NCBI GenBank assembly: GCA_052327205.1
Contig: CM126215.1
Span: 86,676,001-86,740,000, forward strand
DNA: 64,000 nucleotides
DNA from: Somniosus microcephalus
Taxonomy: Eukaryota
Direction: 5' to 3'
The notes beneath the pieces are model-generated. The model saw nothing but the letters and a program-made list of their open reading frames with translations, was not told the DNA's origin and did not search any database. This document shows positions 8,670-60,750 of this stretch, piece by piece; positions within the stretch are counted from its first letter, which is position 1, and each line of letters starts with the position of its first letter. A program made the position numbers and the translations under genes.

Positions 8670-8726
8670 AAACTGAATCCCAAGAACAGAAGTGAGCCGT
8701 ACGGCGAACTGAAACCAACTCAGCAG
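8670..8726 (+). CDS. CD247: CD3 zeta exon (second half of ITAM2): KLNPKNRSEPYGELKPTQQ
   Basis: tgtttgcAG acceptor, GTATGT donor, 57 bp (19 codons, like human ELQKDKMAEAYSEIGMKGE); spliced ITAM = YSKL-x8-YGEL. Confidence 0.92.
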
Positions 8727-11450: not shown

Positions 11451-11486
11451 AAACGAAGAGGCAAGGGAGGGAATGACATTTACCAG
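11451..11486 (+). CDS. CD247: CD3 zeta exon (first half of ITAM3): KRRGKGGNDIYQ
   Basis: Poly-T tract with caacAG acceptor, GTAGGA donor, 36 bp; human equivalent RRRGKGHDGLYQ. Confidence 0.95.
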
Positions 11487-11554
11487 GTAGGAAAGAAATG
11501 ATTAGAATTGCTGTCTTCTGAAAAAGACGTACGAGTGATATGCAAGCCAGTATG

Positions 11555-12445: not shown

Positions 12446-12529
12446 GGACTGAGTGCGGCTACACAAGACACATACGACCAACTGCAAATGCAGCCATTAC
12501 CAGCTGTGCCTCCACCCCCTCGTCGCTGA
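12446..12529 (+). CDS. CD247: CD3 zeta terminal coding exon: GLSAATQDTYDQLQMQPLPAVPPPPRR*
   Basis: ttttgcAG acceptor; human [21 protein letters not shown]; ITAM3 = YQGL-x7-YDQL; TGA at 12527-12529. Confidence 0.96.
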   Translation, partial: GLSAATQDTYDQLQMQPLPAVPPPPRR

Positions 12530-13673: not shown

Positions 13674-13699
13674 AATAAAACCTAGTTCAATGAAATAAA
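13674..13699 (+). terminator. Candidate CD247 polyadenylation signals (two AATAAA)
   Basis: AATAAA at 13674-13679 and 13694-13699, about 1.15 kb after the stop and just before the next repeat; an ATTAAA also occurs at 13076-13081. Confidence 0.45.
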
Positions 13700-13869
13700 G
13701 CCTTTGTAATCACCCAAGAGCTTTTCAGGCTTGTGTGCCTTTGTATCGTATCAGTACTTTCTGCCACTCAAGGGATCTTTGGCCAAATTTTGTAGTTGCT
13801 GCCTATGCATTCAATAGCCACTGCATAAATACAGGAAATGCAATGGCTACTTAGCTCATGTGTGATAGT

Positions 13870-14100
13870 CACTTTTTAACGCAGCGAGTTATGATGATCT
13901 GAAATGCACTACCTGAAAGGGTGGTGGACGCAGATTCAATAGTAACTTTCAAAAGGTAACTGGATATATACCTGAAAAGAAAAAATTTGCAGGGCTATGG
14001 GGAAAGAGCAGGGAAGTGGGACTAATTGGATAGTCTTTCAGAGAGCTGCCACAGGCACGATGGGCCGAATGGCCCCCTTCTGTGCTGTAAGATTCTGTTT
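13870..14100 (+). mobile_element. CR1 3'-end fragment
   Basis: gcagattcaatagtaactttcaaaagg..gcagggctatggggaaagagcaggg..gggccgaatggcccccttctgtgctgta; same family as 29120-29375. Confidence 0.85.
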
Positions 14101-17100
14101 CTGGGGGACATTTTTAAAGATAGTATATCAGCAAGTCAGAAGTAACTGACTCAACTACAGCTACTACTAATTACCTTAATGCCCTGTATTAGGCATTTTT
14201 TGTTTTGCATTCTGAAAATAAGGTCCTGGTTGCTTTATAAAGCAGCTTCCTTTGTTTACTACTAATAATTGCAGCAATCAGACTAAATCCATCATAATCT
14301 GAGCACAACATTTTGAATACTCTGTAAAAAGATATTTGTAAAGATATACATCCATGAACAAACCAATGAACTATTCATAATTACATTTATGCATAGACAG
14401 ATCCAGGAAAGTGGTGAGATTAGTTGTTTCTTTTAAATGAATGGACAACTTGAACGCCTACAAAAGGTGAAATTAACAGCCAATTTTCATTCTCAAGAAA
14501 TGAAACGCCCTGTCTAATTGTTACAATTTGAAGCAGCACTCCAGGGTGCGATTTGTTAACTTATTTTGAATCTGGGCCTAACTGATTTAGAAAGATGATT
14601 CTATTTCTTGCTTAATTTTCTTTTGCTGTTGCTTAAAGAAATTTGTAGTCATTGTTCATTTTACACATTTTTATGTATTTAATGTTATGTTTTCTATAAT
14701 GCCTGTCAACTTTTCTGTATTAAAAGATGCTAGTTATCAAGATTGATTTGAATATTAATAATCCTTTGATTCTTTAGTCCCAAGGACAGTGCGTCATTCG
14801 GAGAATTTATTTTTCAGTGAAGCCCAACAGTCTTTCCAATTAATTGACATAATTACATCAAAATAGATGAAAGTTTGAGAACTGTTAAGAGTGACGATGG
14901 TAAATTGACCATGAGCCAAGAATGTATTATTCTAAGAATGTGCATTATAAACCAACACATTTACACTGAATAGCACAAATTCTGTAATAGGCAAGATTTA
15001 AACAATATAATCTTGATGGCGTTGAAGTGGCGGGTTTCTGGCCTGGCTCTTCATCTCCTGTAAGAATGAGAAGGGAAACAGTCCATTAGTTGGTATAAGT
15101 AATCACTCCTTGTAACGCAGCCAGCAAAAGCCAACCAGTTAGTTTGTTATGACAAGGTGTACTGAGCGTCCTATAACAGCATAAAATGTAAAACAGGAAA
15201 CAAGATGAGCACCAGGCCTTCGTAGCCTTATAAACAGAGATACAATAATAAAGAAAAGCCTTATAATAGGAGTGGCACATACATCTTATTCATCATGGGA
15301 AGAGTGTGGTGGCATCAATACTTGTCATCACCTAGCACTAGTCCAGCCAACACAAATTGCCCATGGCTGTCTTCTGCAATTGTCAATCTAAAGAAAAAAT
15401 CTTTAAATGATGGGAAAAGGATAGTCGGGATTCCAATAATTTTGCAATATGAAATATGCATCACGAGAATTCATTGCAGTGAAATTTTAAAATAATTTAC
15501 TGCAGTGAGTTAAAGATGGAATAGTAGAACAGCTATAAGCACAATCATTCTTTGGAACATAAGGACTGATTCTGTAATCTCAAGAGAATGCAGCCATTTA
15601 ATCCTGTTCAGTAACAGAGGGAAGAAATGACCTTAGGATTGTTGTGCATGTGACATACTTACCCAACTGGAGAGAGTTCAGCAGATTTGGTGGGGTCAGT
15701 TAATTTTAATAATTTACATATGCTCCCTATGCAGTTTGAGCCTTGCAGAGGGACCATAATAAAGGGAGTTTGCTGAACATGATGGGCTGCTGCTCAAACG
15801 TAAAGACAAATGGCCTCATATAGGGAGACAATATTTTTGGAGCCTATTTTAAGGCTCAAAAATATTCACAACAGTTTTTAGCATTTGCAAATGCTACCGG
15901 GGGGCAGTGGAAGGAAGAACAGATGTGAGTGGTTCAAAGACAGCATGAGGTATGAAACAGAGTAAATAGCAGAATTGGTGCTGGCCCCAACCAGTTTGAT
16001 GGCAGGTTAAATTGATATTCTACTTAATGAACTGGGTGCAAGAAAGCTTGCCGATGGGGTCCCCCCCCAGGGCACTTTCTCCAACGGATATCAGTGCACA
16101 TCTAGCAGAAGGTGGCAACCAGACTGAACGCTGTCCAAAGTTACTACAGAACTCGGAAATAGATGCAGAAGAAGTTGACACACTTTAAATAATCTGGCAC
16201 AGTAATAAGACTAATTAATAGTAGCACGCACCAGGTATATAGCACATGCTACTAAGTGTAGCTGTCAACCTGTTGTGCATTTACTGCTTGCCCTGCCAAG
16301 CCTTCAGACAATGGGACAAGTTTTTCATTGTATTGCATACATACCCATATCTCAGCAGGCTACACAGTCAAGATGCTGTGTACAATTGGTATCCTTGCCA
16401 CATTCACATCTTCCTAGGGCTTCTGGTTCGAAAGGGCAGCCACCAGTGACCCCTGCACTTTTGAGAAATACATCAATATGGCAATATTGGGCACATGTTA
16501 TGGTATTCAGTGTGAATGGAGATAATAATTTACCATGCCGACCAATACAAAAAGTCACCTACTTGATGCACGCAATACCTGATACTGTAGCACAAATTGG
16601 GACTGGGCCATAAATATAACAATTGAGGTCAGGTGCGGAGAAAGAGGTTGCTGATGGATTGTTGTACATGGTGCTGCTTAGGTGCTATTTCAACTATAAT
16701 TTAAAATTAAATACAACAGACTGGAGACACAAGGTATGTGTTTTTCTTAGATGATTAACACACATTGTTTAAGATTAACCATCAAAAAAGGTCAAGTACT
16801 CAATGGTTGTATACTTCAAAAGAATGGACTGCAAAGGTAAGCAGAAAATAACTAAGTTTCCCATCAGCATTTTAAGTCAGAATTTTAATGAACCAAGACG
16901 CCATTACAAAAATGAATACAAAATGATTAGATAAAATGACCACATTACAATACAAAAAAATCTAGCTGCAATGGAATTCTTTCATGGCAGTTATTGAAGA
17001 CGGCTTTATCTGCAATGACTCACTATACAATGGAAATTATTTTGAAAAGGAAAGTTAAAAACCAAAGAGTACCTTAATGCAGACAGAAGCAATATTGTTA

Positions 17101-19726
17101 AATTTGCATTTCTAATACAACTGAGCAGTTCTCAATTATCAAGAATACTTATCACTGTGTATCTGGTTTCATAATAAATTAGAAAAAATAGGCTTTAGTT
17201 TGAATAGATATTTTTAAATTAAAGGGGTGGGGAATAAATTAACACCTTAAAGTTCAAATATTTATCCAATGTACAGCAGACCAGACTAGTAGCCATTTAA
17301 CATGACCCTAAAACCAGGCAGCATCATGTAAAATCAGAGATATGTGCAATCATCTAAGTCAAACTTTTTTTTAAATCTTAAATTCAAGGGATGCTGTTTT
17401 CACATCTTGATTGGAAAGCATTGAAAAATTGTGCTCAGTTATAGTTGTCATCTGCTAATTTAGATGAGTTTGTTTTTCTGGCTCTTGTGTTGAAACTCCC
17501 GATACAAGTTGTTAGTTCCAGTTCAAGCTTCTACCTATATAATTGGCTGATGATTTATCTACTAATGCAAATTTCATGAACCAGTTTTCTGAATGAAGCA
17601 TGCTACAGCATTCCATGTTAGGGAGGCAGGATCATTCTCAACCTGCAGAGGTTTAGTTCATTGACTAGAGAAAAACACAGCTGGTAATTTGAAAATTAGT
17701 AAGTTGAAAAAGTAGATAAAATCTGTAAAAGCTTGGTTATTGATTCCTAGTTAGAATTTGGCAATTTTTTACTTCTGTAGATATAAAACCAATATTTTGC
17801 CCTTTTGAAGTATATAAATCTTTCACCACCTTCAACTCCCTACCTAAATTAGTCATCCAACTAACTGTAGGGTTATCATAAACAAGTTAGCTATATTTTT
17901 GTTCCCATCCAACAGAGTACTGAATTTTAAATTAAATTCTACAACCACATAGCTATTTTGTTGATGATATGATCATCTGTAACAGACTACTAAATTTTAA
18001 GTGTTGGAAGTAACTTCCTACTTCTGACACCTTAAAAGACAATCAATTGCTTCAAAGTTAACACTGATCCCAAATACTGATGTTGATTCAGCAACTATTC
18101 AAAATGTTGAGCCCCCCTAAAGAATAAGCAATTTCCCAGAAATTCCCGACTAAATTTGTCAAAAATATTTTTCCACAAAGATATTTTCCCAACGTGATCA
18201 GTAGTATACTAAAGGCCCCTTAATCATTGAGGTTCAATTCAGTGGTTCCAGTTAAATTTATACAAATGTGTTAAAGGATTGAATACACAATTAAAAAAGA
18301 CACACAACTGAAATGATCTGCAAATGTGTAGCTACGTCATTCATGAATGAAATACTGAGAAAAACTAACACTAAACGGGGCAGAATATTTAGTACCAGGA
18401 ATAAGCAAAAACACCAAATGAAATCAAATAACTAAATTTGTCAAAGTGTAAAATTTAATATCCTGACAGTTTAGTTCTTACAGTTTCCCAAAGGTTAATC
18501 TTTGCACTTCTAATTGAGTTCATCATGAGCCAGAAATGATACTGTACATTGTAAGTTCATATGGTTATACCAGTACACAGCAATATACAAATCAATGCTT
18601 AACAATAATGCCTTACTGTTGCAATGTGTCAGTATACAATTACAATGAAGTGTGCATTCACACCAGTTTATTGTTGGAAATACTTTACACACAACATAAT
18701 GTCGCATTCCTGCTTCTAACCTCAAAGGCTAGAGCCATTTTAAACTTTCCATTACCACTCTTCAAAAAGATCATGCCATCTATTGTATTAAAAAAATTCA
18801 CAGTAAAATGTTGCACAACTGAATACGAGTTAAACTGAAACTGCTGCATTAGTAATAGAAGACATACCATCCTGTGATGTAAAAATTCTGAATCCCAGTG
18901 AGGATCAGGGTTAAAAAACTGTATGGACCTTGATGGCTGCAACTTGTTGATATAAATGGGGTAAAATAGTTACTTAAAATTTTTCATCATTTTGCTTCTT
19001 TCATATTCACACTATTTTTACTGCTCCTGCCAAACTTTTTTCTTAGTCATTTTAAATGAAATGGTCAATTGACCAAGTCAAAATATTGAATGGTCACGAT
19101 AGCTAATATACAGTTTAACTTAGATTAGGCAATACTGCCCTTCTTCCAGCTATACCTTGGTGATTAATTGTTTATTTATAAGGTTGCTACTAGCCAACTG
19201 ACATTGATGTTCATTTATAGGCACTGTAGTACAAATAAATGGCAAAGGCATTTTTTTCATATTTACGTACACTAGATTTATGGATGGAGAATTTTAAACT
19301 TTATTACCTAATCGCATCTTGGAAATACTTTTGCTTGTAAACTAGTTAAACTTGCTAGTGTTGTACCCTAAACCCTTTAAACAAGTTGTGTTAGTTCTGC
19401 AAATTACTAATTAGTGGTCCATTTTAACATTGTGTACCATGTCAGCATTATTCTGTTGGGTTTATTTTCAAATCACTGGTAATAGGCAAACTTTTCTTGG
19501 GAACTGTAATTATTTTTCACCAATAAAAACCACTTCTCTTCAAGATCAGTTTACAAATACAATGAAGACCTCTCAACTAGATGGGGAAATATTCAGATCA
19601 GTGGTTTGGGGCAATCATAAAAAGTAGCCCGGTAATAAATCAAACTATTCAGGGGCCAAGCATTTTGAGATCATGCCAATTGACAATGGGGCAGACTGCT
19701 CCAATCTGTAGTTGATGAAAGGACAA

Positions 19727-19798
19727 GGGAGGTCCTGATCATCAGAACACGGGAGATCCTGATCATCAGAACACGGGAGATCCTGGTCATCAGAACAC
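19727..19798. repeat. Tandem repeat, 3 x 24 bp (gggagatcctgatcatcagaacac)
   Basis: Three adjacent copies, each with 0-1 substitutions. Confidence 0.9.
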
Positions 19799-22009
19799 AA
19801 CATTTTCTGGGCAATTAGAATGGTTGCCTAAACACAGCGTGTCAACACAGGGTCAAATTATGTATCCAATAATATGGTGAAACTGGAATAATTTATAAAG
19901 GCCTATCTGTCAAACAACTGTTTTGAATCAAACTGGAAATCTTGAGCAGCCACTTTGTATGAATATCTCACATAACATTAAATAAGGAACAAGATTTAGA
20001 ATTATAAACTATTACTTAAATAGCTATGTAAAACCTCACTTGCACATCGATTTGGTAAATGGAATAACTGGATCTCTTTACAAACCCAACAGCAAAAACG
20101 CTAGAAATTTTTTAGTTTAATAGATAGGTTAATTCCTCTTATTTCATACCTTGTCATTCTACTTCTGTAATAAACTCTCCAATTCAGTATAATGTTTTAT
20201 CAAGAACTGCTTATTTTCCATAAAGAGTAAAAGGGTAGTAAAGGGGTCTTCATTAAGCAGCCTGCAAATTACAAGCAGCATACAAGGTTGTTTAATGTGG
20301 CCAGCACCTTCGAGGTGGCTCTATGTCAACATTTTCACACATTTAGGAGAATCCTTAAAAGTTTGGTACATTTGTTTTCATGGAGAGCAATGCTACTACT
20401 TAATGCGGAGCAATGCTGTTACAAATTAGTTGCAATCTCTCTTGCAGTTCATCAAGGCTAGACGTTTTCAGTCACAGATCAAGGTTTTGATCTTTTTGGA
20501 AAAGCTTCAAGCCATGCATCCAGAAGAACATCACAGGTAGTTGTCTTTATTACCGAGTTCTGAATTTGTGTTAGACTGATTCAAAAATATACAGACCACA
20601 TTCAGTGCAATTGTTCTGTAATTAAACAGGTTTATAACTAGTATTGCTCAATTACCAATTGATAAATCTGGGAAACTGGACAGCAAGAATGTAATCGTCC
20701 ACAAGAACACTGATTTTTTGCAGTATCCTGCATCATCTCCCTTTCATTAAATATTGATGTTTTTACAAAATCTATTTTTTTAAACCTAGTCAAATTGCTG
20801 AAAAAAGGCTATCTTGATGAAAGTGACAAAGAGTCTGGCAAACAGATTTTTTACCACAATTGTTTATGCAAATTATAGTCATAAGGTTGAGTGTCTATTG
20901 GATCTCTTTGAAGGCAGCATTCTAAAATATCACCAATTTCAACTGCCTTAATAGCAACAGCTTTTGTTTATGGTTACTGTTGAAATTTTGTGTGTTTATT
21001 TTAGGAGAATTGCATCTTGCCCCAGAGCAACAAGCCCTTCAGGATACCATTTTGGAAGTTTCCCTTCAGCGTTTGAGTTGCTGCCAACTGAATTTCAGTG
21101 TAGGGCTTTTTGAAACAGGGCTGTTATCCCAGTCCTACCAAGAAGTAATAACAAGTAGTACAAAATGTGAAAGCAGAACTAGCAGCTTATGCAAAGAAAA
21201 CAAACCGAGGCATCTTTAAGGACTAATTACAGTAAACCTAAAGTTGACTTGAATCCTCAACACTAAGATGCTGTCATTACACATTAGCTACTGTTTTTTG
21301 CGACATTTGCACTGGTAAAGGTCCGACATTTGTAACCATCTATCAGAAGTTTACATTAAAAATTGTCAGCGTATATGTGAACACACTCAACTATGGTACT
21401 GCATTAAGGTGCACTGGATACAGGGACGTCCGCAGGTTACCTGTGCTGCAGTCTTATTGTACAAGAAATACACCATGCACGAGGGGGTAGCTCAATGCAG
21501 TTGAAAACCTTACAGTTACACTCGCTGAGTTGCTGCACATCTTCATTCAGACATACTGAGTTAATAAATCATGACATTTACTCATTGGCAACAGTATCCC
21601 TTTTTTCTTGGTCATCTACAGAATTCATACACAGAATACAGTAAAAGACCACCAAAAATCATATCTACATATCATTTTAGGCCAGCAAAAGCTGTCTTTT
21701 GCTTTAGTTCCCATAATTCCTGATTTAAACAAGTTCAAATGTGATCAGATGCAACCAATTAGGTTCATTCCTTAGGAATGTTTACATTCGTGATGTGGTC
21801 ACGTGGAAATACTGAACAACAGATTTATTTGGACTCTTCATTCTGCCAGCTACCCACTGAACAACCTGCATGAAAGTTAACAGTTTAGCTTCTTCTTTAA
21901 AGGAGGCTCACTGGCAGTCCAGGACCAGAGGGCGAGAAGGAAGGAAGGAAGGAATACCCTGAACCAAAATGAGTAATGCAAGATGCTGAAAAAGGCAAAA
22001 AACATCGCC

Positions 22010-25000
22010 CATTTTCTAGAATTTTATATTTAATATATGTCAACAGTAGGCACCTATAACCACATTGTATATTGGTCTGGTTGGAAATTTTGGGATTCAT
22101 GCATTCCTATTTGAATTATTTTGTTGTGAATAAGCTGGATATATATTTTTTTAATTGATTTAATTTTCAATGCCATTATGTAGATATACTTTTTTTTATA
22201 TATAAGAAAGGAATACTGCCTATTGAAAAACTTTTTTTTAAAAAAACCTTCCAATAAATAACACATCTAAAGAATATAAGCCTGCGGACGTCCAAAATTG
22301 GATAATATGTACACTTTTAAAACTATGAACAACTAGGCAGTGAAAAACAGTTATGTTCTCACACACAAAGACACACCCAAAACATACAAAAATACTATAT
22401 CTTAAACTACCAAGTAAGACGATTTAATTTTTTATCTCATGCCATGACTTAAGAGCAATACACTGAAACGAACAAGGATTTGACAACAAAAAAAACCTTT
22501 TATCCCAGAAATATACCAAAATATACATCTAAGCTTTGGAATTACTGAGGTTAGACTAATGCCTGCTGGGTAATTGCATTTAATACACAATTCTAAGGTT
22601 GCAAAGAAGAAACAAATCTTTGGTATCTGCATTAGGCGAATGTTAACATTTGTATTTTGCTTTGGGATAGAGCTTGTATGATCCTACAACCCCCATTTAG
22701 TACTCAAAAAAATTTTCACTGAACACAAAAAATCCATCTTTCTCCACACAAAAAAGTACTGAGTCTCTATCTAGCACAAGGTTGAGGAATACAATGCATA
22801 GTTGCACAGTGGTATTATGAAAAGGAGATGAAACCTTTGTAAGCAAGCTACATCTTTTTTAGTCTTCATTTTTCTTTCACAAAATGAAACGGCAGCGTCC
22901 AGCCTGTTACAGTCAGTTCTGAAGAGCACCTCAGTGTGTATTAATCCAGATCACCCAGCCCAAAGGGATAAATGCCCCTCAGAAGAGCCAATCCTACCAC
23001 AGGAGTCTCCAGTCTTTTAACCAATCAAATAACACATGGCGCTCCACTTTTAGCAGTCCCTCTACTGCTTCGGTAGACAGAATGAAGCAGATTTCTTTTA
23101 CTTTATATCACTGTAAGCAATTCACACTTTTGGAATAAGATTAGTGTAGGACTGAAGACATTTAAAAAAAAATTTAGTTCATACAATCATTAATAAGTCT
23201 TTGGTTTTATCAGCACAATGTAAAGTTGCTGGCATGTAACAAAAGCACTAAGCATGACAGGAAAGACCATCACTAACATTTACATTCAGAAAGTGAGTGC
23301 TATTCTCAGGGTATTTTTAATGATGGACACAACACCCTTACCTGATCTGATACAAGATTGTCAAAATTGAACAGCCATTTGTTATTCAACCAATATTTGG
23401 CTACTAGCACTACTGTGCAATCGTCTGTTTGGACTTGGGTATAGCTGAGGGATAGAGCCAAGGAAAAGAATTACTGCACAGTGACAACTGTACACGACAA
23501 GGTATGAAGATGTATTGTAGTTTCCAGTGGACAAAAATGCACCGTGTCAGGGATTAGGCTTGTGGTATACAAGCACATAAACTGCCATTTTTGTGTTTAA
23601 GTGTGTGGCCTTAAGAGATTGACAATGAAGCTCCCAATATACGTGAACGCATCAATAATTGTCAATAATTTGGGCTGAATGTTCAAGAATGTATTTATCC
23701 ATCTGATTTACATACGTAATAGTAAAAATTCAGCAAGTTAAATCAGCCTACATTTTCACTCAGCTAGGTTTAATAGCCTGTCTTGACGACCAGATACAAA
23801 AGAGTTTCGGTCGCCGAATACTGGGTTTACATCTAGCGGGATACTCGTGTCTCGTGGGAGTGAAGTGGTGACCCGCCAGCATATCTAGCCAGTTCTCCCA
23901 GTAGAAAGTTGTGAGTCAGGCCAACAACTTGCCTGGGTTATGTCATGGGAGCAGCCAAGAACACGATCTATTGGATATAAAGCAGGGGAAGCAATGGGTT
24001 GCCTCATGTGCCGTTAAGCACGGGTGAGAAGAAGGTGGTGGTTCAACAGTTTGGCTAAAATTTCAGTGGGGGGGGGGGGGGGGAGAGGTGTGGAGGGCAT
24101 TAATGGCCAAGTAAGATAAACACAATGAAGAAGTTAAGGAATTGCAATATGCCCAATGTTTACTTAAACTTTAGTTGTCAATTCTGACTGCTGTTATTCT
24201 CCTGCCGTGCTAGTGCTGATGCATGCCAGATTTTCTTTTAAAAAGTATACAGTCAGTGGCAGGTTCAGCCACTCTGAGGGGGGGAGATTAAAGCGAGTTA
24301 CTCAATCATGAGTTAGAAATGAGGTATACAACAGCTCCTGTACCTAGGACAAATGGTGAAACCACCATTTAAGCAATTGAGGAAGAAAATGAAATAATCA
24401 TACCAGGCGAGTAGACAAGTGTAACTTACAGGCATTTCCATTTAAAATTTGTAAGATGCTCAAGTAAATAGGTCACCAGACAAGGTATATTCCCCCCCCA
24501 CCCCCGCCTCGTAATTCCAGTAGCAAAAACAATCATATAAAGTCTTGCTGCACTGATGACTCCACTGAATATGATGTAATTTCAAAACCCACCATTGCAC
24601 AGGACATAACAATCCCTAGGGTAGTTAGTGCAGTCACAGATACTTGCAAGTCCCTAAACTTCTATTTGGGATATTAATAGCTGCTGATCAGACAGTATGA
24701 TCATTTTTAAAGGTATCCCAATGTATCGATAATCAAAATATGGAGGAATACCAATTCGCTGAGTGTATCAGATTTCTTTCCTCAGGTAATTAATCTCTAC
24801 TACACCTAAATTACTACTCTATCACAATTAGAATGGTTTATAATTAAGCCCACAATAAAACAAAACCTACTCATTAACTAGTAATTTCTGCTGCAGATCA
24901 AGACTGTGACAATATCCCAAATGCACCAGAACTTACACAAAAGTAACTAACTGTATGATTGTCCTATGGTAGATGTGATGCTTTTACAACTTATATGGAG

Positions 25001-28000
25001 GCTTTTATATCAGGTATTTGAATAAGGTTGCTATAAAGATCACACAAAGTTAACTATATAAACCTGTCTGGTATTCATAGCAATCATGGGAATAAATCTG
25101 ACATAGAATTTCATTTTCTTCCTCAGAATTCCTTCATTTATTAATTTATACTATACAACCTGATCCACACTTTTGTTCCAAGTGCTCTTCTTGTATAACT
25201 GAAATGGATGCATCAAGACTTTCTTTTTTATATCATTCTCCAAGACTATGTAGTTCTTTACAAAACTAGCCACTAAAATGAGAATCAATTCTACCTTCAT
25301 AACCCACTAGGGCTCGTCTGTTAGTAAAATTTTCATTTTTTGTCTACATGAATCTCAAGGTAACCAACCTTCTGTACTTTCAGTATCCACCAAATTGGTT
25401 TTCCTGCCTTTCCTTATCAATTCAAAGCGAGGACTTTAATACCATTAATGAAGCTGTGTGTATCTACCAATTAAAAGCTAACAAATTTATTTTGCTTTCT
25501 TTGAGACTTTCTAGGTGAAAACAGGAGGGGAAGAAGAGTAACAACAGGTTTAAAGGCACCACTTCTGACTGCATTCACCACAGAATCAGGTGTATAACTC
25601 TCGCCTATATATAAATCACTAGTTTATATGCGTATTATTATGCATATCAACAGTTGAAAAGTTGATTAATTATAAACTGCTACCCTATATAATTGAGGGG
25701 AGGGCTTAAATATAGGCATGAAATAGTGACATGGATCAGATCTTACTGCACAAGGAAACACAGAAAATGAGTAACTGGTTAACCCACAGTAATAGGAAAA
25801 CTGTAATTACAGAATTATTGTAGCGTTTCAGGCCTCAAGAGTCAAGCATTTTTAAACCACAATTTCACCATGCTTCTCTGTACTTATAGTTTATAAGTAA
25901 ATACAGGGGCATATCAAAGAAAGCATAATAAAGCTAAAATAGTCAGACATCACTTGCTTCCTTATATCCGAGTCGGCTGCAACGCTTTCATTGGGCACTT
26001 CGTACGAATACAGTATCGAGAGCCAGGCAACATTTTTAATACTGCACCAGGGATGAGCAAAAGTTTTGGAACATTTCAAATTTCTTTTTGAAAGGGGGTG
26101 GGGGGTGAAAGCCAGAAAAAGGAAAATTGCTGTACAGATTGTCTGGGAGCTATAGCAGGTGAATACTGAACTCCCAAAGGGGTAATTTCTGAATCCTTAT
26201 CTCAAAGTGATATTCAAACACACAAATGTCACAAGCAGAAAATATCACTAATGCACAGATTCAGTTAGGTGGAAGGGATAAAAAGTATGCTTTTACAAAA
26301 TTAAAAATTAATTTGTAGTAATAATGAATGGCTAAATAAATAGAAAACAGGTGAAGCATTTGGGAAACACAGGAATACTGAAATAATCATCCAGACACCA
26401 TGTGATCTTTTCTTGCAACTACAGAATGTAAACCAGCAGCAATGGTAGTTTTTGATTTAATTCCCCCCAAAAAAATAATTTGACCCAGCACTCGGATGCC
26501 AACAGTAACCAGACTACCAGAGCAGAGTGCTCGTCAGCAGTGTAAAACACTGGCAAGACTAATCCAGCCCAACAAAAAAAGTTTGTATCCCTCAATCCCC
26601 AAATTAAGGATGAATAAAAGGGAGAATAAAAAGAGAGATTAACTAAATATAGGAAAAATAGTAACGCTTTACTTGAAAGTGGAAATATTTTTACTGGTGA
26701 AAAAACTAGAGGACAAAAAGCTGCCTGTTGACAATAAACATTCCCAGACAGGGTTTGTGAACTCCAAACTTTTTGTTCATCCCCATATTACAGAATGTTA
26801 TGGCTAAGCGATTTGATAAGTATTACTTTAACATGGACAGGCTAAAATCATGGCAAAGATAACTGGCTATTTTAGGAAACAAAACTCATTCAGTTACCTT
26901 GTTTGGTGGGGCAAGTTAAATTACCAAATATCTTGACACAGCAATTTTAGTCTGGAGTATTGTAATACCCAACCTTGGTACCACCTTAAATTTCTAATAC
27001 AAATGCACATAGACTAGCATCAATACTAGACTATTGCTCTATGTAATGGCACTAGAATGGCATTAGATATACAAGGCTCACAAGTGTAGTTCTTCAGCGA
27101 CACCACTGCAACCCTCTCTTAGAATTTTAATTGCCCACAGTAATGTCCAGTTTTGCAATAACTTTGGATATTATTGATATTAAACCTACACTAAGGAAAA
27201 TATGCCAAACAGGCAGGCAAACCTTGGTAGCCATCTATTTTTGGAGGGTAGCACTTTAGCTGAATTCGTGATAATATTTAAGGGTGTGCAATATAATGCA
27301 TTTATTAATATTGTTTTCAGGCTGCTAAAATGTAAACTACAATACTTAAAATATAAATAGTTATATAAAATTTAAATAGTATTTTTTTAAAAAGCAAACC
27401 AGATTCAAAAGTCAGCCATTTCAAAATGTAATCAATTAGACATTTTTCACAGCTAGATGAGTTATATTGCATGAAACTTAAAAGGAAACTGACAAAGGCA
27501 GGAAAATACACAATTGACAATAGTTAATTTAACACATAAATCATGTAGCTAAAAACATATAATGATAGTAATCATAGCCCAAAATGTACATACAAGAGGT
27601 TAGATGGACAAAGTTGCCACCTAAGTCACTTGATAATAGTCAGTTATATGGACTTTCTCCAACTCATCCTCATGACACATAAAGAACATTATTGCACACC
27701 CCTAATATTTGCTAGAACTTTATCTTAGAAAAGTCAAATCATGCCACTGATGATTCCATAGCAACCTTTGAATCCAAATATCAGATTTAAAATTACTCCT
27801 GATCCATCTGTATGACACAATCTAGTTTGATACCTTGAAATTACTACCAAATTGCTGCAAATTCTCATTCCACCAACTGGATGCACAAATGAGAGCTAGG
27901 ATAGTCAAAGTGTTAAGCATCTGTTACTCTAAAGCACAAACCAAATGCCCGGAGACAACTGTAGCCACTTATCAACACAACTGTTCTTTGATCAGTCAAG

Positions 28001-31000
28001 CAGGTGCAAGGAGCAGGATATATTTTTGGTCTAGACTGAATTGTTTAGCATTGCTATCATCAACAATAACAATAATAATACAAAGTTAAAAACTTACTCA
28101 ACTATTAGTGTGACAGATACTACATTCAATTTACAACACAGATAAAACATGTTCACTTTTTCCTTTTTTTTTTAGAAAACACGTTTTCTATAGTGGAACC
28201 CTCTCCCAGCCCCTGACATTGTTGAACTAACCCCTTTCTAACAAAAGCCCAGTGGAAAATGAACGGTATGGTACTGCTTAAAAATGTAGAATACAAACTT
28301 TAACTAGTTTAAAAACAGTGAGATGAGGCATGCTAAAACTTAGGCCACATATTAATTGAGTTGCAAAAGAAGGCGTTTGCTTTGGCAAATAGAATCACAA
28401 AGTAATTGATTTCTTTCTTTAGTTATCAAGATCACCTTTTAAAGAGAAACTAAATCCAAAAACATTTTTTTTTTAAAAAGTACAGCCTATCACCCAAAAA
28501 TCAATATCTACATTCTAAATCTACAATCATATCCACCAGGAATAGTTTTTGCGTTTGCAAAGCAAGCCTGTAATTGCTAAGCGATGCTGAGGTATTTCTT
28601 TTTTCATGGAAAGATTGCAATGATGGAAAACTTTGCTCATGTTTTACTTATAGGGTGCGAGATGTCTCATTTCCCAATGAAAATGTTTGCACAAATAGCT
28701 TAAAGCCATCTTTTTTTTTTAATTTAAAGAAGTTAAGGTCATAATATAGTGGGTAATATTAGTAAAGTGTTATAATGGGATTTCCCCCACCCCCCAATTT
28801 AGTTCACCTAAAATGGGGCAAATGCATCATTATGTGATTTTATTTCTTGGTCTCCCTATTACTTACACAGGAACCACTCCATGCCATACAGCTTTCAGAA
28901 AGGACGATGACGAGGTGTAAGCTCATGACAGCTCCATAAACCTCTAAAGAAAGCACAATTGTAATGGGGCAAGTAGAATATCAGTTTCCTCCTTTCAGCC
29001 CAAAAATGGAGTACCCTGAAATGGTGCTTACCCTATCCTACCATGATAATCATATCAATGACAATCAGCAACTTATTACTCCAGCAGCAGGACTACACAC
29101 CATGTAAATACATTACTGCTGCTAGAGGACACAGATTGAAGATAACTGACGAAAGAAGCAGAGGAGAGATGAAGAGAATTTTTTTACACAGCGATTTACG
29201 ATCTGGAATGCAATGCCTGAAAAGGTGGTGGAAACAGATTCAATAGTAACTTTTAGAAGGGAATTTGATATATATGGAAAAATTTGCAGGGCTATGGGGA
29301 AATAACAGGGTAGTGGGACCAACTGGACAGCTCTTTCAAAGAGCCGGCACAGGCACGATGGGCCAAATAGAATCTTACAGCACAGAAAGAGGCTATGAAT
29401 TCCATGGAGAATTGTAGAAGGACAATTTCTACATTTTGTGCTCGGTAGACAACCTGATCAATCAACTGATTTTTATAATAAAACAAGTTATGTCTGTAGC
29501 AAGGGACGGATCTTATTCAAAGCTTTAATCAACTGGTTCAATAGTGCTGTCATATTTGAAGAAGCAAGATATTGCCACAAGTAGTGAATTGAATCCTCAA
29601 CAAAGAGTTGCGCTGTCAGTTTTACAATCAATTTAAATTTGATGTTTTGTTTCGGGGGGGGGGGGGGGGGGGGAGAAGAGAGGAGAAAAATGGAGATTAT
29701 ACACTGTACAGATAGATATTATAAATCTGTATCAATTAAGTTCTCATTTTGATTATTAAGAGTTAATGAACCATGAAATAAACTGTAACTACAATATAGG
29801 TGCCTGCAGGGTTATACATTCTCCACTTCAATGAAGTCAATTTTTAAAAACTGGATAAGGTATATCTCCTGGAGGACCACTATAACAGCTTTGACCTGGT
29901 TGATGGTGCCTGTCCTGATTGCTTGTGGCAAATTCTGTACTAAAAACTTTAACTCCGTCTCTGACACACATTGGTCATATACCCAAGTAAGAGTATATAC
30001 ATAGGGAGCAAAACATAAAATAAAAGTGTGCACTTCAGTTGTCAAACAATGCAAAAATGCTGATTTCATTCTAAAGATACGTCAGAACAAGGGCACATCA
30101 ATATTAAACTAAAATAAATGTTGGGAGTCTTTTAGAAAATGATTAGCGATTAGCTGATCAAGCTGTTAAAAATGTGATCGTGCTCTTGTATTAGAACTGG
30201 GCAAAAAATGTTCACCATGGAAGTAGGACTCAATCTAATGCTTAAACTGAGATGAGGTATACCCATGTATGCTTAATGTACATCTAAATTATTTGGCTTA
30301 ATCCAGTGTACATATACACACACCTTAAAATTTAGTTTTCAAGTCAAGCCTTTGAAGGCCAAAGTCAAAAGCTTGTTACTTAAAGGTTAGGAACAGCATA
30401 GACATGCATTACAAATATGCTAAATGTATGCACATATTGCATTAAATTTTTTGCAATTAAAATTCTGAGATTCAAGCATTTATGCAACATATAAAGCATG
30501 ACCAGAAATAAAATCATATAGTCCAGGGATATGGGAAAATAGATCAGATAAATATGAAGAGTCACATTTAGCCTGGTTTATTTTAGAAACCAACTTTTTT
30601 ATGCATAGTCAATGAAAATATACATATTGCGCCAACAGAGGGCCAAGTTTTAGACTGAAGTCAAGAACTGTATTAAAACTGCCTATAGGCTTTACAACCC
30701 ACAACAGTCTGAGGAGGAGGAATATTTGAGCCCATGTCTCAAAAGGCAACAACATTTGAATTTGGTAATGCTATTGAAATGCCTCCATTAGAACATTTTG
30801 CTACCTTGTTAAGGGATTTTACATATTTAGATTTGAAATTTAATCCTCTAACATTCAAAACTTTTTTAAAAAGATCTAAAAAAGCTTTTGCTGCAAAAAA
30901 ATTGTATGATGACTTAAAATACTAAGATTAAGCCAACATTTTGGAAATTTCTTTAAAACATAAGAGATTAGGAGAGTTTAGAAACATGGGTAAAGTATTC

Positions 31001-34000
31001 TTCATGGAGAAAATTGATGGTTAATTATCAGTAAGTGCACTTCCAGATTTCAACATTTCAAAAATGAATTTATGATTTAACGTCAATATTATCCCATCTT
31101 AATTAGCAACTTCCACTTTACAAGCTTTACATTAAACTGAAAAAAGTCAAATTCTATTCATGTGGATTGATTTTAAGCCATGGAAAGATGGCAAAATGGG
31201 ACAATAGCACAAATGGTAATTTTAATCAATTAAGAGCATGAATTGTAATCACAACAGCTCTGAATTACTTTCTGCTCCCAATTAAAATTACTCATTTTAA
31301 CTGTTAAACTCTATATTCCCTATATACCATTCAATTTCAAAAACTTGCTAACAACCCATCCTATAGACACACCTCAATGTCACATAAGCCATCAGTCTGG
31401 AATGTTGGTGCAAATGGTACTGCTCAGCTCCAACTTGTACAAGAGCAAACATAATCCCGAATGAAAATCATCGTTTTGATTGCTTCATCCTCAAACTACC
31501 ACATTCCACAAATTAAGCAGGATTCTCTTTGCAACAGATAGCAAAATATTAACCCATTAAGGAGTACAAAATTAGAGTTTTCTCCACCTTATTTCCAGTT
31601 GTCTTATTCAGAGACACAACGAAGATTTAAAACTAGCCCAGTTAGGTTCAAAACTTAAATACAAACGGAGGTCTGAGGTCAGCTGCAAAGTGTGATTGAA
31701 AAAATGTGTATGGAGAATTTCCTCAACTTTTGTTTCACTACCTCTGGCAACAACTAGCATTCAATTTTGTTTTGCACTTAAAACCAAAATAGCGATCTTA
31801 GATACACTTCTAAGTTTATTTTTCTTCTTGCTGCTTTTTAGAGTATTTGCTATTTATGGAGCAAATTACTTAAGTGGAAAAATCAGGTGCAACAAAGGTT
31901 TCTCAGAAACTGTAAAGCCTTCAGTCCTCCAAAGGGTTAACGATAAACTAATGAACCAGTTCTGTCCTTCAATTCAAATCTACTTAACATAAACAACATA
32001 CAATGAAAGCTGTCCCCAAAATACACTGGGCTGACTTCAGTTGTACCAACATGGGCTGAATATTGAAATTCACCTGGTCAATTTATTTTCTATATGTCAT
32101 ATACACCATTCCCTAAATGAACAGCTAGTTGGGCAATCTGTCTTGAGCCATACTACCTGGCAGGTCTGAAATGTGCGAGTAAGCACTGGTCAACTCTAGG
32201 AAAGCACCTCACCATTATTCGAACACCCAGCTAGCATTAGGTACTCATGGGGAAATCTTTCCACTGCATGGCACATTGAATTTGTGAAGCAACACAATTT
32301 AGCATTAAGCTCAGATTCAATTTATTACTGAAACTGATGTGACTGTAGACAGCTGGTCTTTAGATAGCTTTCATTGCATAGTTTGTACTTTTGATACACC
32401 ATTAATTCTTTCCATGCACAAGATACTATGCACCTTCTTGTATTTTGGGTGTCATTACAACATAGTGCAATGAGAGACAACTGTAATGAGGGAAGGTGTT
32501 TCATGAATCTGACTTGGGTGGGTGATGGAATCACAGAAAGATTTGGAGAAATTATAAATCTGCTCCAGGAGGGCTAAAGGATTTCAGTTTACAGTTGTAC
32601 ATGGGGTCCAAACATTTCCCACTGGTCCAAAGCCCAGAATCTACTATTAGGACAGTAACAATATTCCTTTAAAATTTGATTGACTATCCAGTGAAAATAG
32701 TACAAGAGTACATCAACTAGAAGGATCCAAGTACTGCAGCAATACAATCCTGAAAACACCAGTACAATTTGTCACAGGATCTATTCTGTACATTTAGACA
32801 CTCTTAGGACTTGTATACCTTGAAATAATGTTTTCAACCTCCGTAATATCACGAACACCAGTCTACATTTAGCCATCCAGTAAATTTGAATTGCCCAATG
32901 AAAACTGGTTGCACCAGACTCTTGACAAAATGGTTACTACTCTGCAACAATGTAAAGTCCATGTTTGAAGATTCCTTTACCTGAAAAACGACATTAAAAA
33001 GTAGAAAATAGTAACTGTTTACCTTTTATGAACAGTAGCAACTAAATTACTGATGCCTATTAACTGCACTCATGCAAACAATGTCATTGGTACAGCAGCT
33101 AGGTAAAACTGACTTTGGTTCAAGCTTTAATAGCTGTCCATATTTGGTAGGCAGCCATATTCATTGTTTGCAGTATGGTAGTGTAACCCTACCAATACTG
33201 CAATTTTTATGTCTTGAAAAGGAGATAAATATTGTTACTAACAGGGTTAAAAATGGTGGCTGTCATTTTTTTTTAAAGATTAAGAAACTGGTTTAGCTGC
33301 ATCCAGTTATTGTTACCAGCACAAAAACAGCACTAACCACGTAAATTCCAATGACAAAATTAGTTGAAGTACCTAATTGGTTTAAGTAAATGTACACACT
33401 ATCTCAGTGCAGCATTATGGGTGAACAACATAGTCAGCAACAGAGCACAGGGATGTCCAGATGAACACTCACTTGATTCAAGCATATTATTTATTGAAGA
33501 ATCAGTTATATGTTTATCAGGAAAAATTATGTGCTTCTAGACTGAAGAAAATTATACCCCACATTCATTTCCAGTGGGCAACTCGGCACAAAGTCCATAT
33601 GTAACGGGTAACCAAATGTGCTGTTGTTCATTAACCAATTGGACACAATGGGCAGCGTGGCCACAGTAATCATCTAGCTTGCAATGCAATCCCTGCCCCT
33701 CACTTCCACAAGCACACTGACAGAAAATGACAGGCACCATTTTTACTCCATGTGAACTGCAATGCTCTACTCCAGTCCTTTTAATTTTTGGTTTTAATAC
33801 GCTTACAGCAATGGTTCAAGCCATACTGTGCATACTGTAAGCCTCTTGTCTCACAACAACCCTATTTTCCATTAGATAAACAAACTCCAAACTGAGCCAA
33901 CATTAAATATGTTACCAAGCTCTACAGGAAACATACATTATCTAGTTTCTATAAATAAATCCGTTTCTGGAAACTAGGTAATGACTTTTCCCCATTGGAG

Positions 34001-34872
34001 ACCACTTTTCATGGTTAGCTTGGTTTGGATTGTAGTTTGCTCATCTCTACCATATTCCATGATGGTTCCAACTGGCTCCAGTATCTGAGCAAAGACAAAA
34101 GCTTCACAAGATACCCATGATCCACTGACTATAACGTCTCCTCCATTTCCAGTTGTTCAGCCAAGTGGATCAATATCTCTGATGGTATGACATTTGCTAA
34201 CATACCCAACCATTACATTTAGGTAGGACAGACATACTAAGCCATTTTAAAACCACCAGTTTGTGAACTTTTGTCTCAATGCATCTATCTTTGAATCTTT
34301 CCTACAAAAATAACCAACAGTAAACCACTTTATACAAATGGTGCATAAATCTACAGTGTACCCGACAAGAAACAACCTTTAAAGAAAGGAAACCATTTCA
34401 AGAGACATTAGCAAGAAGAAAAAAATAAAAACCCAATGTAATCTTAACGGTATACACAAGGAAAAAAAAGATGCACAAGCATCCCAAGTACAGGCCTGCC
34501 TAAACTGTACCAGTTAAAGAAACCCATGCTATTTATACATGATATAAACACCTTTATGAAACAAAAAGGCCTGTACAACAGACCTAATTAAAATAAACAC
34601 ACAATTAAAAAGAACTAATAAAATAGATACTAAGAGGAGACAGAACCCTTGCCTATGCATTGTTAATGACTCCTATATTGTTACGACCGTCTGAAACGAT
34701 AAATATTCACGTGTTTCCTTTTTGGTAAAAGTCTTTTTTTTGTCATTTGTGACACAATCCTGAAAAACAAGCACGTTAAAAAAATTAGGCAAACATCAGT
34801 TTTGCTTTTGCTGGAAGCAGCCACCTACACATCCCATTACTGGATTAAATGATCCACTCTAGGGATTACGTC
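22010..34872 (-). other. POU2F1: Probable long (about 13 kb) POU2F1 3'UTR
   Basis: AT-rich, almost TE-free sequence downstream of the stop; candidate ATTAAA (- strand, 22029-22034) followed by a U-rich downstream element; mammalian POU2F1 also has a 3'UTR over 10 kb. The end point is inferred. Confidence 0.55.
29120..29375 (+). mobile_element. CR1 3'-end fragment inside the putative POU2F1 3'UTR
   Basis: RGHRLKIT remnant plus a 3'UTR matching 13870-14100. Confidence 0.85.
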
Positions 34873-35171
34873 TCATTGGGCCTTGGTGGTGTTGGTGGCC
34901 CCGCCTGCTGAGGTCACAGTGAACGAAGAGTTCTGGCTGGAATCAGCTGACATAGAGGCCATCTGGAGACTGGCGGCATGTCCAGTTGCCCCGGCAGCGG
35001 ATATCAGGCTTACGGCTGGGTTGCTGGTGAGTAAGGAGAGGTTTTGTGGGTTCAAAAAAAGAGGGGCTGTAACGATGTTTGGAGTACCCCCTGGGTTCGC
35101 TGCATTGGCAAACAATAGATTTCCACTGGCATCAAGGGAGGTTATAGGAAGTGTTCCACCAGATGCAAGCG
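34873..35171 (-). CDS. POU2F1: POU2F1 (Oct-1) terminal coding exon: (A)[51 protein letters not shown]...TTKAQ*
   Basis: ttctcAG acceptor, phase 1; matches human [49 protein letters not shown]...SKAQ; TGA at 34875-34873. Confidence 0.97.
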
Positions 35172-40579: not shown

Positions 40580-40958
40580 CCAGCTGCAAACTGAGGGGCT
40601 GACATGAGGCCAGGATTGGCTAGTCCTGCAGCAGCAGCCATGGCAGCTAGGCCTGGATTGGTGGCATGCCCAGCACTAGTGGGTACCTGTGCAGCTGCTG
40701 CTTGTAGCGCAGTGGCCGCCGTCTGCAGTCCAGACGCTGACACCATGATTTGGCTTGTGCACAGAGGGTTTACTAAGCCAGTTGAGGTTGTCTGTGTGGT
40801 ATTTGTATCACTGCTGCTGGACGACTCAGTCACTGAAATGGATGCTGATGGTGAAGGGGTCAGAGACGGCGAAGTGACTGTCGACGTGGAAACTGCAGAT
40901 GATAGGCCGGTGATTACAGATGCCACGTTTGTAGGAGCTGTCCCTGATGCAGTTGTAC
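40580..40958 (-). CDS. POU2F1: POU2F1 Ser/Thr/Ala-rich exon: (G)[17 protein letters not shown]...[12 protein letters not shown]...[12 protein letters not shown]...[10 protein letters not shown]...QFAAG
   Basis: cccAG acceptor, GTAAGT donor, 379 bp, phase 1/2; matches human [42 protein letters not shown]. Confidence 0.96.
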
Positions 40959-41198
40959 CTGGGAGGAATAATGAGAGATATGAATTTTGCTTCCTATTTT
41001 ACGTTTCATCAAAATACTTCTAAAATGATTCACAGAATAAAATATAGGCATGAGGAAATGAACACTCTCCTTTTGAGGATAATCGTGGAATATTGTTGAT
41101 TATTGTGTTCAATTTTACACTAATTTTGGTGCAGAACACAATTAAAGAAACACATATCTGAATGCTACAGGGATCAAATTGACAATTATGAACACAAA

Positions 41199-58570: not shown

Positions 58571-60113
58571 CCCCCATGACTCTATAAATGTGTAGAAAAA
58601 TGCTCAGAATAGGCAACATTTATATTTGAAACCTAGGAGAAACTCAAGGTTGCAAATCAAAACACCCCCTAGAGAATTTCAATATCGTTAAGATGAGAAT
58701 AAATCTGTTTACATCCCCATTGCAACTTAGAATGCACAGCCTTCGTTCAGCTGGAAGGGCTAGAGCAATTTGGGCATTACTCTAGGGCAATCAACGAACG
58801 GACAAGCTGATTTTAACCTCAACACAAAGCAATCGATAACTAGACGTTAATAAGATATAGAAATTAGGACTTCATCTGATTTCCTTACAAAGTAATGACA
58901 GCACGTGAACTTTCCTTTTAACCTGAACACCTTAGCTATAGAGGCGCCATTTAGTTCAGTCCCTGCAAGAAACTAACTGCTTGAACTTTGACGGATTTAG
59001 TCCCTTACAGATAAAAGCACAGTACTCTGCATGCATTGCGGCTTCGCCATCTATTTCTGATCTGTGAAAAGCAAGAAACAAAAATAGGAAAAAGATTCTA
59101 CCCTCGCCCAAGTAAACCAAACTAATTTTATCCACAAAAATCTGCAGATAAGGAGGGCAAAACTCATTTAGTTGTACCTGCAAAGAACTTTGGGAAGGCT
59201 TCCATTACCCTCAAATGGCAAGTTTAGGTTTTAGTTTGATCTTCCCAACAGTCATGTCACAAAGACTAAATAGGATTGGGTAAAAATAAAACCTTGCATC
59301 TCATCTGAAAATTGCAACGTTAAATATCCATTCCTCTGAGGGAGAGTGGATCCGAGAACCACAGTTGGACACCATGAGGAATACTTGACAGATCCCAAGA
59401 ATAAATATGTAAAAAGGTAAATCTACTTCACACGTGTATATTTACTTAACATCCATCACCATTCAGTAACCCAGGAAGTAAAGCACTCACCATGATCAAA
59501 AAAGACTTGCGCACTCTGCTTTCTGTCTTACCATTTTTCAACAAATACACAAAAGTACACATGCATATATTATAAAGTATTGAAATCGCACGCCCAATAA
59601 TGCTGTCTGCATTAACTCTATTTACTAATCGGAAATGCAATTATCCACATCTGGATTCCCAATTAGCCAAATGCAGCTGGTGGCCAACATACTGGACAAC
59701 ACTGACCTAAAGCCATCTTTGGCACCAAACTATCTAAACAGAACTCTATCCACAATCTGTCCGCATTAAAGTATTTTGTATAATCTATGTGAATAGCTCA
59801 AATCTCTGTATGCAAGTCTGGTTCTGTATCTTATACATTGTTTTGGTCCCCTACATGCATCAAACTAAACTAGATTACACCATATCAGCTGGAATGAGTA
59901 TCTCCATTTACTGAACAAGTATCTCTATTTACAAAGTTTGTGTTATTGCGACAAAATTCAATTTTCTGCACATCACAGTGTATTTGTACAAATGACTTAC
60001 AGCTAAGCTGCAGAAAACACTTTTGCCAATTAGGTTTTGTGAACAGGAGTATAAATAAAATTGGTACTTCACTTAGAATTTATTTACATTAGATTGTACA
60101 TATGTTCTCCTAC

Positions 60114-60293
60114 CATGGAGGTGGGGTTATGAAAAATTGTTTTGGTAGAAGTAGTAGTGCCGCTGTTACTGCTGGGTGGATTAATCCGCTTCTCTTTCTG
60201 GCGTCTGTTACAGAACCAGACTCGGATCACCTCCTTCTCCATCTGCAGCTGATCGGCAATCATCATGATCTCCTCCGAGGTAGGCTTTTGGTT
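60114..60293 (-). CDS. POU2F1: POU2F1 homeodomain exon: [42 protein letters not shown]...PTSM
   Basis: Diagnostic POU class [13 protein letters not shown]; ttgcAG acceptor, GTAGGA donor, 180 bp, phase 0/0. Confidence 0.98.
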
Positions 60294-60750
60294 CTGCAAG
60301 AATGAAACAATTTTCTTTTTTTTTTTTTACAGAAGTTGAATAAAGGTCTCTTTACCATATCTAGCACATAAAGACGGTCAACATTTGATTGTGACTATGT
60401 TTTTACAATTATTATAACAAACAAAATATATTAATAGATATCCTATGGCATTGTTCATTCATATATTCTCACCTTGAGCACAGTTGTTATGTTTAGCTGC
60501 TAATGTGGCTTGTCCCTTTACGACCACTACTCCAGCACTCTGTGCAAATCCAAGTCATTGTAGCTGCTTGTAAATTGTTCATGTCAATAAGAAGTAAGCA
60601 AAAAGGGTTCTAAATTTCAGGTTCCAGCTCAATGCCCGTCTGTATTTGCTTATTTTTTAAATATTAAAAAAGGATTATTTCACATCTGTAACAAAGTGTG
60701 ATGTCTGGTGTGTGATGTATCTGCACTAAATTTAAAAAATATAAATTTAT

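What the first reader, a model, noticed from the sequence alone, without database searches (positions are those of the whole stretch)
22861..23138. Apparent homologue of the mammalian CD3-eta alternative exon, antisense within the Oct-1 3'UTR
Seen: the + strand frame 22923-23135 is open and reads RAPQCVLIQITQPKGINAPQKSQSYHRSLQSFNQSNNTWRSTFSSP; it is preceded by an in-frame TGA (22920-22922), a pyrimidine tract and two in-frame AGs (22861-22862, 22894-22895). Established (recalled, needs checking): in mammals the CD247 exon ending GLYQ can splice to a distal eta exon that overlaps the POU2F1 3'UTR on the opposite strand, and the mouse eta tail contains RPKGESTQQSSQS, which aligns without gaps to QPKGINAPQKSQS (PKG....Q.SQS). 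Inference: the eta exon was exapted from a POU2F1 3'UTR element that predates the shark/bony vertebrate split. Splicing here from donor 11486 would give ...NDIYQ-RPACYSQF* (or a slightly longer variant), a zeta chain lacking a complete ITAM3, as eta does.
Basis: partly seen in the sequence, partly recalled or inferred. Interest (0 to 1): 0.85.

Follow-up and report, generated by a model that had tools for sequence, protein, structure and literature searches.

The report
Possible silent CD3-eta precursor in shark

Summary
The layout is real. CD247 (+, stop 12529) and POU2F1 (-, stop 34873) face each other across 22.3 kb of repeat-poor DNA. The frame, TGA, AGs and the 13-residue match (7 identities) are as described, and the rodent peptide is confirmed in a rat database protein.

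The peptide match alone is chance-level: tblastn E 2.5, and about 2 such matches are expected in the interval. The eta peptide is not conserved even among mammals: bat reads it in a shifted frame, and one rat model stops there. A nucleotide profile derived from rat, hamster and bat tails ranks 22954-23012 first on the + strand in 20 of 20 combined-profile settings. Significance is borderline (Markov null 0-13%), and a minus-strand control site scores higher in 9 of 18 settings.

Both proposed acceptors meet the TGA at 22920 before the eta-like stretch, and 0 of 36 cartilaginous-fish cluster members carry another tail. No RNA reads and no other vertebrate DNA were examined.

Best reading (0.55): an old POU2F1 3'UTR block, silent as an exon in sharks, later co-opted in mammals.

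The parts
11451..11486 (+). CD247 penultimate exon (KRRGKGGNDIYQ); phase-0 donor GT at 11487-11488
   Evidence: tblastn with shark zeta P0047
12446..12529 (+). CD247 normal last coding exon (GLSAATQDTYDQLQMQPLPAVPPPPRR, stop), completes ITAM3
   Evidence: same tail type in all cartilaginous-fish zeta proteins held
13674..13699 (+). Two AATAAA hexamers, likely the CD247 poly(A) signal (inferred)
22423..22428 (-). ATTAAA with the richest downstream U/GU element of the 45 minus-strand hexamers in 12.5-35 kb; predicted distal POU2F1 poly(A) signal (inferred, not shown by RNA)
22861..22862 (+).
   Evidence: crude acceptor score -1.9, 246 of 1426 AGs in the interval score higher
22894..22895 (+).
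   Evidence: score -9.1, 941 of 1426 AGs score higher
22923..23138 (+). 71-codon stop-free frame, no early ATG; no relatives found, of a common length
22933..22949 (+).
   Evidence: scores -4.0 and -1.9
22954..23012 (+). About 60-nt core resembling the mammalian eta-exon DNA, one 1-nt gap; single copy in the genome
22423..34872 (-). Inferred long POU2F1 3'UTR (about 12.4 kb if it ends at the 22423 signal; could run further, to about 16.9-18.5 kb)
   Evidence: repeat-poor, minus-strand U-rich word excess in 24 of 28 bins from 21001 to 35000
34873..35171 (-). POU2F1 last coding exon with stop at 34873-34875
   Evidence: Pfam POU2F1_C E 1e-34; acceptor at 35172

Best explanation
The stretch is likely a non-coding block near the far end of the long POU2F1 (Oct-1) 3'UTR on the minus strand, and its 60-nt core is probably, though not provably, descended from the same DNA that placental mammals later spliced into CD247 as the eta exon. 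In the shark, CD247 would end normally at its own last exon and poly(A) signal near 13.7 kb. The block would be kept because of its role in the Oct-1 mRNA (3'-end formation, or protein or microRNA binding; which one is untested), not because of any peptide. The eta-like peptide seen on the + strand is then only the shadow of shared nucleotides read in one frame. In mammals, a cryptic acceptor on the opposite strand would have been recruited. Any splice from the ...YQ donor removes the distal half of ITAM3 whatever frame follows, which would explain why rat and bat read this DNA in different frames. Shown: gene layout, stops, frame shifts among mammalian database proteins. Inferred: UTR extent, homology, silence in shark, order of events.
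For: Tail-to-tail CD247/POU2F1, the arrangement named in the titles of Lerner 1993 and Ohno 1994 for mouse (titles seen in reference lists only). Repeat cover 1.9% at 21801-34870 and 2.8% at 13721-21800, against 11-85% in 35 of 35 control 10-kb pieces. Minus-strand U-rich word excess in 24 of 28 bins from 21001 up, 7 of 17 below; the best minus poly(A)-like site is about 530 nt beyond the core. Bat tail P0233 matches rat tail P0152 at nucleotide level in a shifted frame (score 33.2, 0 of 200 shuffles), and rat P0150 stops at the PKG position. Combined profiles rank the core first on + in 12.5-34.9 kb in 20 of 20 settings. Markov null over the whole interval: 14 and 5 of 150; 7, 3, 13, 1, 0, 0 of 100; 1 of 150 for a fixed 2-kb slot. 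In the best setting all 6 background hits lie in DNA of GC 0.47 or more, the site 0.435. Silence in shark: in-frame TGA after both proposed AGs; 0 of 36 members of 10 fully listed cartilaginous-fish clusters have another tail.
Against: Peptide match is at chance level. A minus-strand site in the same interval, where homology is not expected (25511-25579 or near 16032), outscores the core in 9 of 18 settings. Real shark background gives 6-60 equal or better peaks per 700 kb, 9-49 and 26-281, i.e. 0.2 to several expected per 22 kb. Partial profiles did not always rank the site first (first in 2, tied in 1, lower in 3 of 6 rodent-only settings). Single tails: rat P0152 rank 1 in 3 of 3, hamster ranks 4, 5, 18, rat P0150 rank 27 or unranked; the bat-only peak near the site is in another register, so it is no independent support. 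Repeat depletion covers the whole interval and does not fix the UTR end; strand skew also arises in any transcribed DNA. That the mammalian exon lies near the UTR end is recalled, from no call.
Confidence: 0.55

Rival explanations
1. The stretch is ordinary POU2F1 3'UTR (or read-through) DNA, and the likeness to the eta exon is a chance match found because 22 kb offers about one such look-alike.
For: tblastn E 2.5; about 1.9 matches of 7 in 13 expected; minus-strand control scores higher in 9 of 18 settings; a bat-only chance alignment falls 60 nt away in another register.
Confidence: 0.33
2. Sharks make an eta-like CD247 isoform: donor 11486 is sometimes spliced to an acceptor here (22862, 22895, 22934 or 22949), giving a zeta chain without a complete ITAM3.
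For: All four AGs are phase 0 with the donor. 22862 and 22949 score within the range of true acceptors here (-3.7 to 7.1, five tested). 22934 and 22949 would translate the eta-like peptide.
Against: The transcript would have to bypass a normal last exon and AATAAA signals and run 10 kb further. Hundreds of AGs score as well. 0 of 40 cartilaginous-fish zeta proteins held have another tail, while rat and bat clusters do list eta-type members. The 71-aa frame has 0 hits among 1.84 billion representatives. Database absence is weak evidence for a rare isoform.
Confidence: 0.06
3. The stretch lies outside both transcripts and is conserved, if at all, as a DNA element (enhancer or insulator between the two genes).
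For: The whole interval is repeat-poor, also beyond the predicted UTR end; no RNA structure signal on the minus strand (z 0.39); no Rfam match.
Against: Minus-strand U-rich skew runs continuously from the POU2F1 stop to about 21 kb; mouse work reports that removing the eta exon alters the Oct-1 transcript (title only).
Confidence: 0.06

Closest known systems
[quoted passage not shown]
   Same: Tail-to-tail CD247/POU2F1; a ...YQ donor before the last exon; a stretch on the CD247 strand, antisense to POU2F1, with weak likeness to eta-exon DNA; any splice would drop the distal half of ITAM3.
   Different: No splice shown in shark; the proposed acceptors stop before the eta-like stretch; it lies 10.3 kb beyond the zeta stop; likeness covers about 60 nt and is borderline.
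TRalpha2 / Rev-erb-alpha antisense overlap (PMC3047299, abstract read)
   Same: A placental-specific alternative last exon lying antisense in the neighbour gene, whose DNA counterpart exists in an outgroup (marsupials) without being spliced: the pattern proposed here.
   Different: There the overlap includes coding sequence and silence was shown by RNA and minigenes; here it is UTR, the outgroup is far more distant, and neither homology nor silence is shown.
Alternatively spliced FcR-gamma with exon 5' (PMC13668506, passages read)
   Same: A zeta-family chain loses an intact ITAM through an alternative last exon.
   Different: Different gene; expression shown in human cells; no antisense overlap with POU2F1.

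Membership tests
CD3-eta alternative last exon | Lies beyond the zeta last exon on the CD247 strand, antisense to the POU2F1 3' region | tested here: met
   UTR membership itself inferred
CD3-eta alternative last exon | DNA homology to the mammalian eta exon | tested here: inconclusive
   Only protein-derived profiles could be used: top + site in 20 of 20 combined settings, but Markov null 0-13% and minus control higher in 9 of 18
CD3-eta alternative last exon | Acceptor that puts the eta-like tail in frame with the ...YQ donor | tested here: not met
   Both proposed AGs meet TGA 22920-22922 first; only weak AGs at 22934 and 22949 would do it
CD3-eta alternative last exon | Junction from the penultimate exon is present in T-cell RNA | not tested
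   No RNA reads were examined
CD3-eta alternative last exon | An isoform protein with a replaced tail is on record for the lineage | tested here: not met
   0 of 36 members of 10 fully listed cartilaginous-fish clusters; the 4 eta-type tails among 311 proteins held are rat (2), hamster, bat
Long POU2F1 3'UTR | Minus-strand UTR-like composition, few repeats and a distal poly(A) signal | tested here: met
Long POU2F1 3'UTR | Continuous minus-strand RNA from the stop codon through the stretch to a poly(A) site | not tested
   No RNA reads were examined

The most novel reading that the evidence does not exclude
The eta exon's core is a POU2F1 3'UTR element older than the shark/bony-vertebrate split, and sharks already splice CD247 into it (most fittingly at 22935 or 22950, in frame with the eta-like tail), so an ITAM3-less zeta variant is as old as the T-cell receptor itself or arose twice on the same antisense element.
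Probability: 0.05. Interest if true: 0.72.

Novelty: new member of a known kind. Interest (0 to 1): 0.33.

Why it matters
If the homology holds, it dates the raw material of the CD3-eta exon to before the split of sharks and bony vertebrates. It would also give a simple reason why eta DNA is alike among mammals while its protein tail is not: the constraint comes from the Oct-1 mRNA on the other strand. That makes eta a clear case of an exon born from an old antisense UTR block, like TRalpha2, and points to a small Oct-1 UTR element whose function can be tested. Without homology the finding reduces to conserved gene order. None of 10 paper searches listed a report of this element in sharks, but the primary eta papers were not in the library.

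Tried and rejected
Protein-level homology as proof: rejected, E 2.5 and chance-level counts. The 71-aa frame as a gene: no Pfam family, 0 hits in 1.84 billion representatives, common length. Search for more eta tails: 1 hit among 2 candidates, hamster P0226; the Atlas gave no usable hit. Vertebrate DNA in metagenome contigs: 595 pattern matches, none confirmed; 95 matches to a two-anchor motif, 80 fetched and examined, none similar beyond the anchors (best E 0.17). Bat-only peak near the site: rejected as support, wrong register. End-to-end hamster alignment with low gap costs: rejected, 238 equal background peaks per 700 kb. RNA structure (z 0.39) and Rfam (0 matches in 12.5-35 kb): nothing. 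Sequencing-run search with the CD247 last exon and UTR: 18 runs listed, no RNA holder listed; two raw RNA runs were added by species label; this is no evidence on expression. Paralogous copies: one match in the genome, itself. A first exon scan by pattern found nothing and was replaced by tblastn. Acceptor scores for true acceptors were one base off and were redone; the bat register used was a single offset and was redone by mammal-only alignment. Five primary eta papers were not held (7 look-ups), so their figures and supplements, which may show eta DNA of several species, were not seen.

Full report
Setting. The window lies in a 6.45-Gb genome. Its CD247 transmembrane exon, 16 kb upstream of the window (PF11628, E 2.8e-13), has cartilaginous-fish zeta chains as best hits. 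tblastn with shark zeta P0047 maps exons at about 2732-2824, 8670-8726, 11451-11486 and 12446-12529 on the + strand. The last POU2F1 coding exon is on the minus strand, 35171 to the stop at 34873 (Pfam POU2F1_C, E 1e-34). The two genes face each other across 22.3 kb. The same arrangement is named for mouse in the titles of Lerner 1993 and Ohno 1994, which I saw only in reference lists.

Observation. None of this exceeds chance by itself. Stop-free frames of 71 codons or more occur 29 times in the interval. tblastn gives E 2.5 with 8 better hits in the window. Matches of 7 in 13 to any part of the tail occur 59 times in 700 kb of other shark DNA (35 pieces of 10 kb, both strands), although this is the only one in the interval. 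The frame has no Pfam family and no hit among 1.84 billion representatives.

What mammalian proteins show. Among 311 zeta-family proteins held, 4 have an eta-type tail: rat P0150 and P0152, hamster P0226, bat P0233. The listing favoured normal tails (best 120 of 397 shown; clusters listed up to 15 members). The tails differ as proteins. P0150 ends with ...PPQR exactly where P0152 reads PKG, two frames of the same DNA. The bat tail matches the rat tail as degenerate DNA in a shifted frame (33.2 bits, 0 of 200 shuffles), with several frame changes. P0152 and P0226 look like projected gene models (inference from their frame changes). So the eta peptide is not what is conserved; any deep likeness has to be in the DNA.

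Nucleotide-level test. No DNA of another vertebrate was available, and two metagenome scans gave only chance matches. I therefore turned the four tails into degenerate nucleotide profiles, aligned mammal to mammal only, and scanned the shark DNA. Profiles with rat+hamster+bat or rat+bat put 22954-23012 first on the + strand of the interval in 20 of 20 settings, with a single 1-nt gap. A local Markov null reached the score in 14 and 5 of 150 and in 7, 3, 13, 1, 0 and 0 of 100 runs; for a fixed 2-kb slot in 1 of 150. Against: a minus-strand site scored higher in 9 of 18 settings. Real background gave 6-60, 9-49 and 26-281 equal peaks per 700 kb, though in the best setting all 6 were in GC-richer DNA than the site. 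Rodent-only profiles ranked the site first in 2, tied in 1 and lower in 3 of 6 settings. The hamster and P0150 tails alone did not pick it, and the bat-only peak nearby is in another register. The result is suggestive, not significant.

Is it UTR? The interval is almost free of repeats: 1.9% at 21801-34870 and 2.8% at 13721-21800, against 11-85% in all 35 control pieces and 31-39% in the flanking introns. U-rich words favour the minus strand in 24 of 28 bins from 21001 to 35000 and in 7 of 17 below. Of 45 minus-strand poly(A) hexamers, the one at 22423-22428 has the richest downstream U/GU element. This predicts a POU2F1 3'UTR of about 12.4 kb whose end lies about 530 nt beyond the core. It is an inference: weaker candidates at 22034, 18459 and 16889 exist, and no reads were examined. 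There is no structure signal (z 0.39) or Rfam match.

Is it an exon in shark? On a crude consensus score (recalled frequencies), true acceptors range from -3.7 to 7.1; the candidates score -1.9, -9.1, -4.0 and -1.9, with 246 to 941 of 1426 AGs scoring higher. All 36 members of 10 fully listed cartilaginous-fish clusters, and 40 of 40 such proteins held, end in the normal exon, whereas rat and bat clusters do list eta-type members. A rare unannotated junction is not excluded.

Mechanism. Most likely (0.55) the core is an old block in the distal Oct-1 3'UTR, kept for its role in that mRNA, silent as a CD247 exon in shark and recruited in placental mammals by a cryptic antisense acceptor. Loss of the distal half of ITAM3 follows from the donor position, so the tail's frame is free to drift. 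The closest worked case is TRalpha2/Rev-erb-alpha, where marsupials keep the DNA but do not splice it (PMC3047299, abstract). Rivals: chance likeness in ordinary UTR (0.33), a real shark isoform (0.06), a DNA element outside both transcripts (0.06).

Literature and earlier notes. Ten searches listed no paper on this element in sharks. I read passages of PMC13668506, PMC11876696, PMC8416054, PMC2196153, PMC2199888, PMC2191483, PMC2191308, PMC2195880 and PMC2132864 (mostly reference entries) and the abstract of PMC3047299; the primary eta papers were not held. That eta DNA is better conserved than its protein among mammals is also recalled from 1990s work, not read here. The scan's notes hold nothing on CD247 or POU2F1, only a parallel case at MRAP/URB1.

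Verdict. Real anatomy, borderline homology, no sign of an isoform. New member of a known kind; interest 0.33.

Noticed in passing
window 12530-34872: The whole 22.3-kb interval between the two stops is almost repeat-free (about 2%) in a repeat-rich genome, including 8 kb (13.7-21.8 kb) beyond both predicted UTR ends; a longer UTR or regulatory DNA may explain it.
   Followed up: partly
window 12446-12529: Cartilaginous-fish zeta chains end in a longer proline-rich tail (PLPAVPPPPRR type) than the LPPR end of most tetrapods; possibly an SH3-binding site (inference).
   Followed up: no
L018 (G000:C40:10607082-10607165, -): Second TCR_zetazeta match in the genome, probably the FcR-gamma gene (label recalled, not tested).
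   Followed up: no
protein P0277 (turtle) and P0289 (duck): Non-mammalian zeta models with another end after ...YQ: two residues (HN) in the turtle, an apparent read-through of the donor in the duck. The turtle exon's position is unknown and worth checking against the eta site.
   Followed up: no
   Followed up: partly
window 13871-14096 and 29124-29368: Two copies of one short interspersed repeat, the only repeats found in the interval; one lies inside the inferred POU2F1 UTR.
   Followed up: no
window 19723-19798: Tandem repeat, 24-nt unit, 3.2 copies.
   Followed up: no
window 40595-41023 and 60093-60305 (-): Further POU2F1 exons by translation (Ser/Thr/Ala-rich exon; homeodomain end), and LINE reverse-transcriptase fragments at about 3.6-4.7, 9.2-10.8 and 43-45 kb (labels from recalled motifs).
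   Followed up: no
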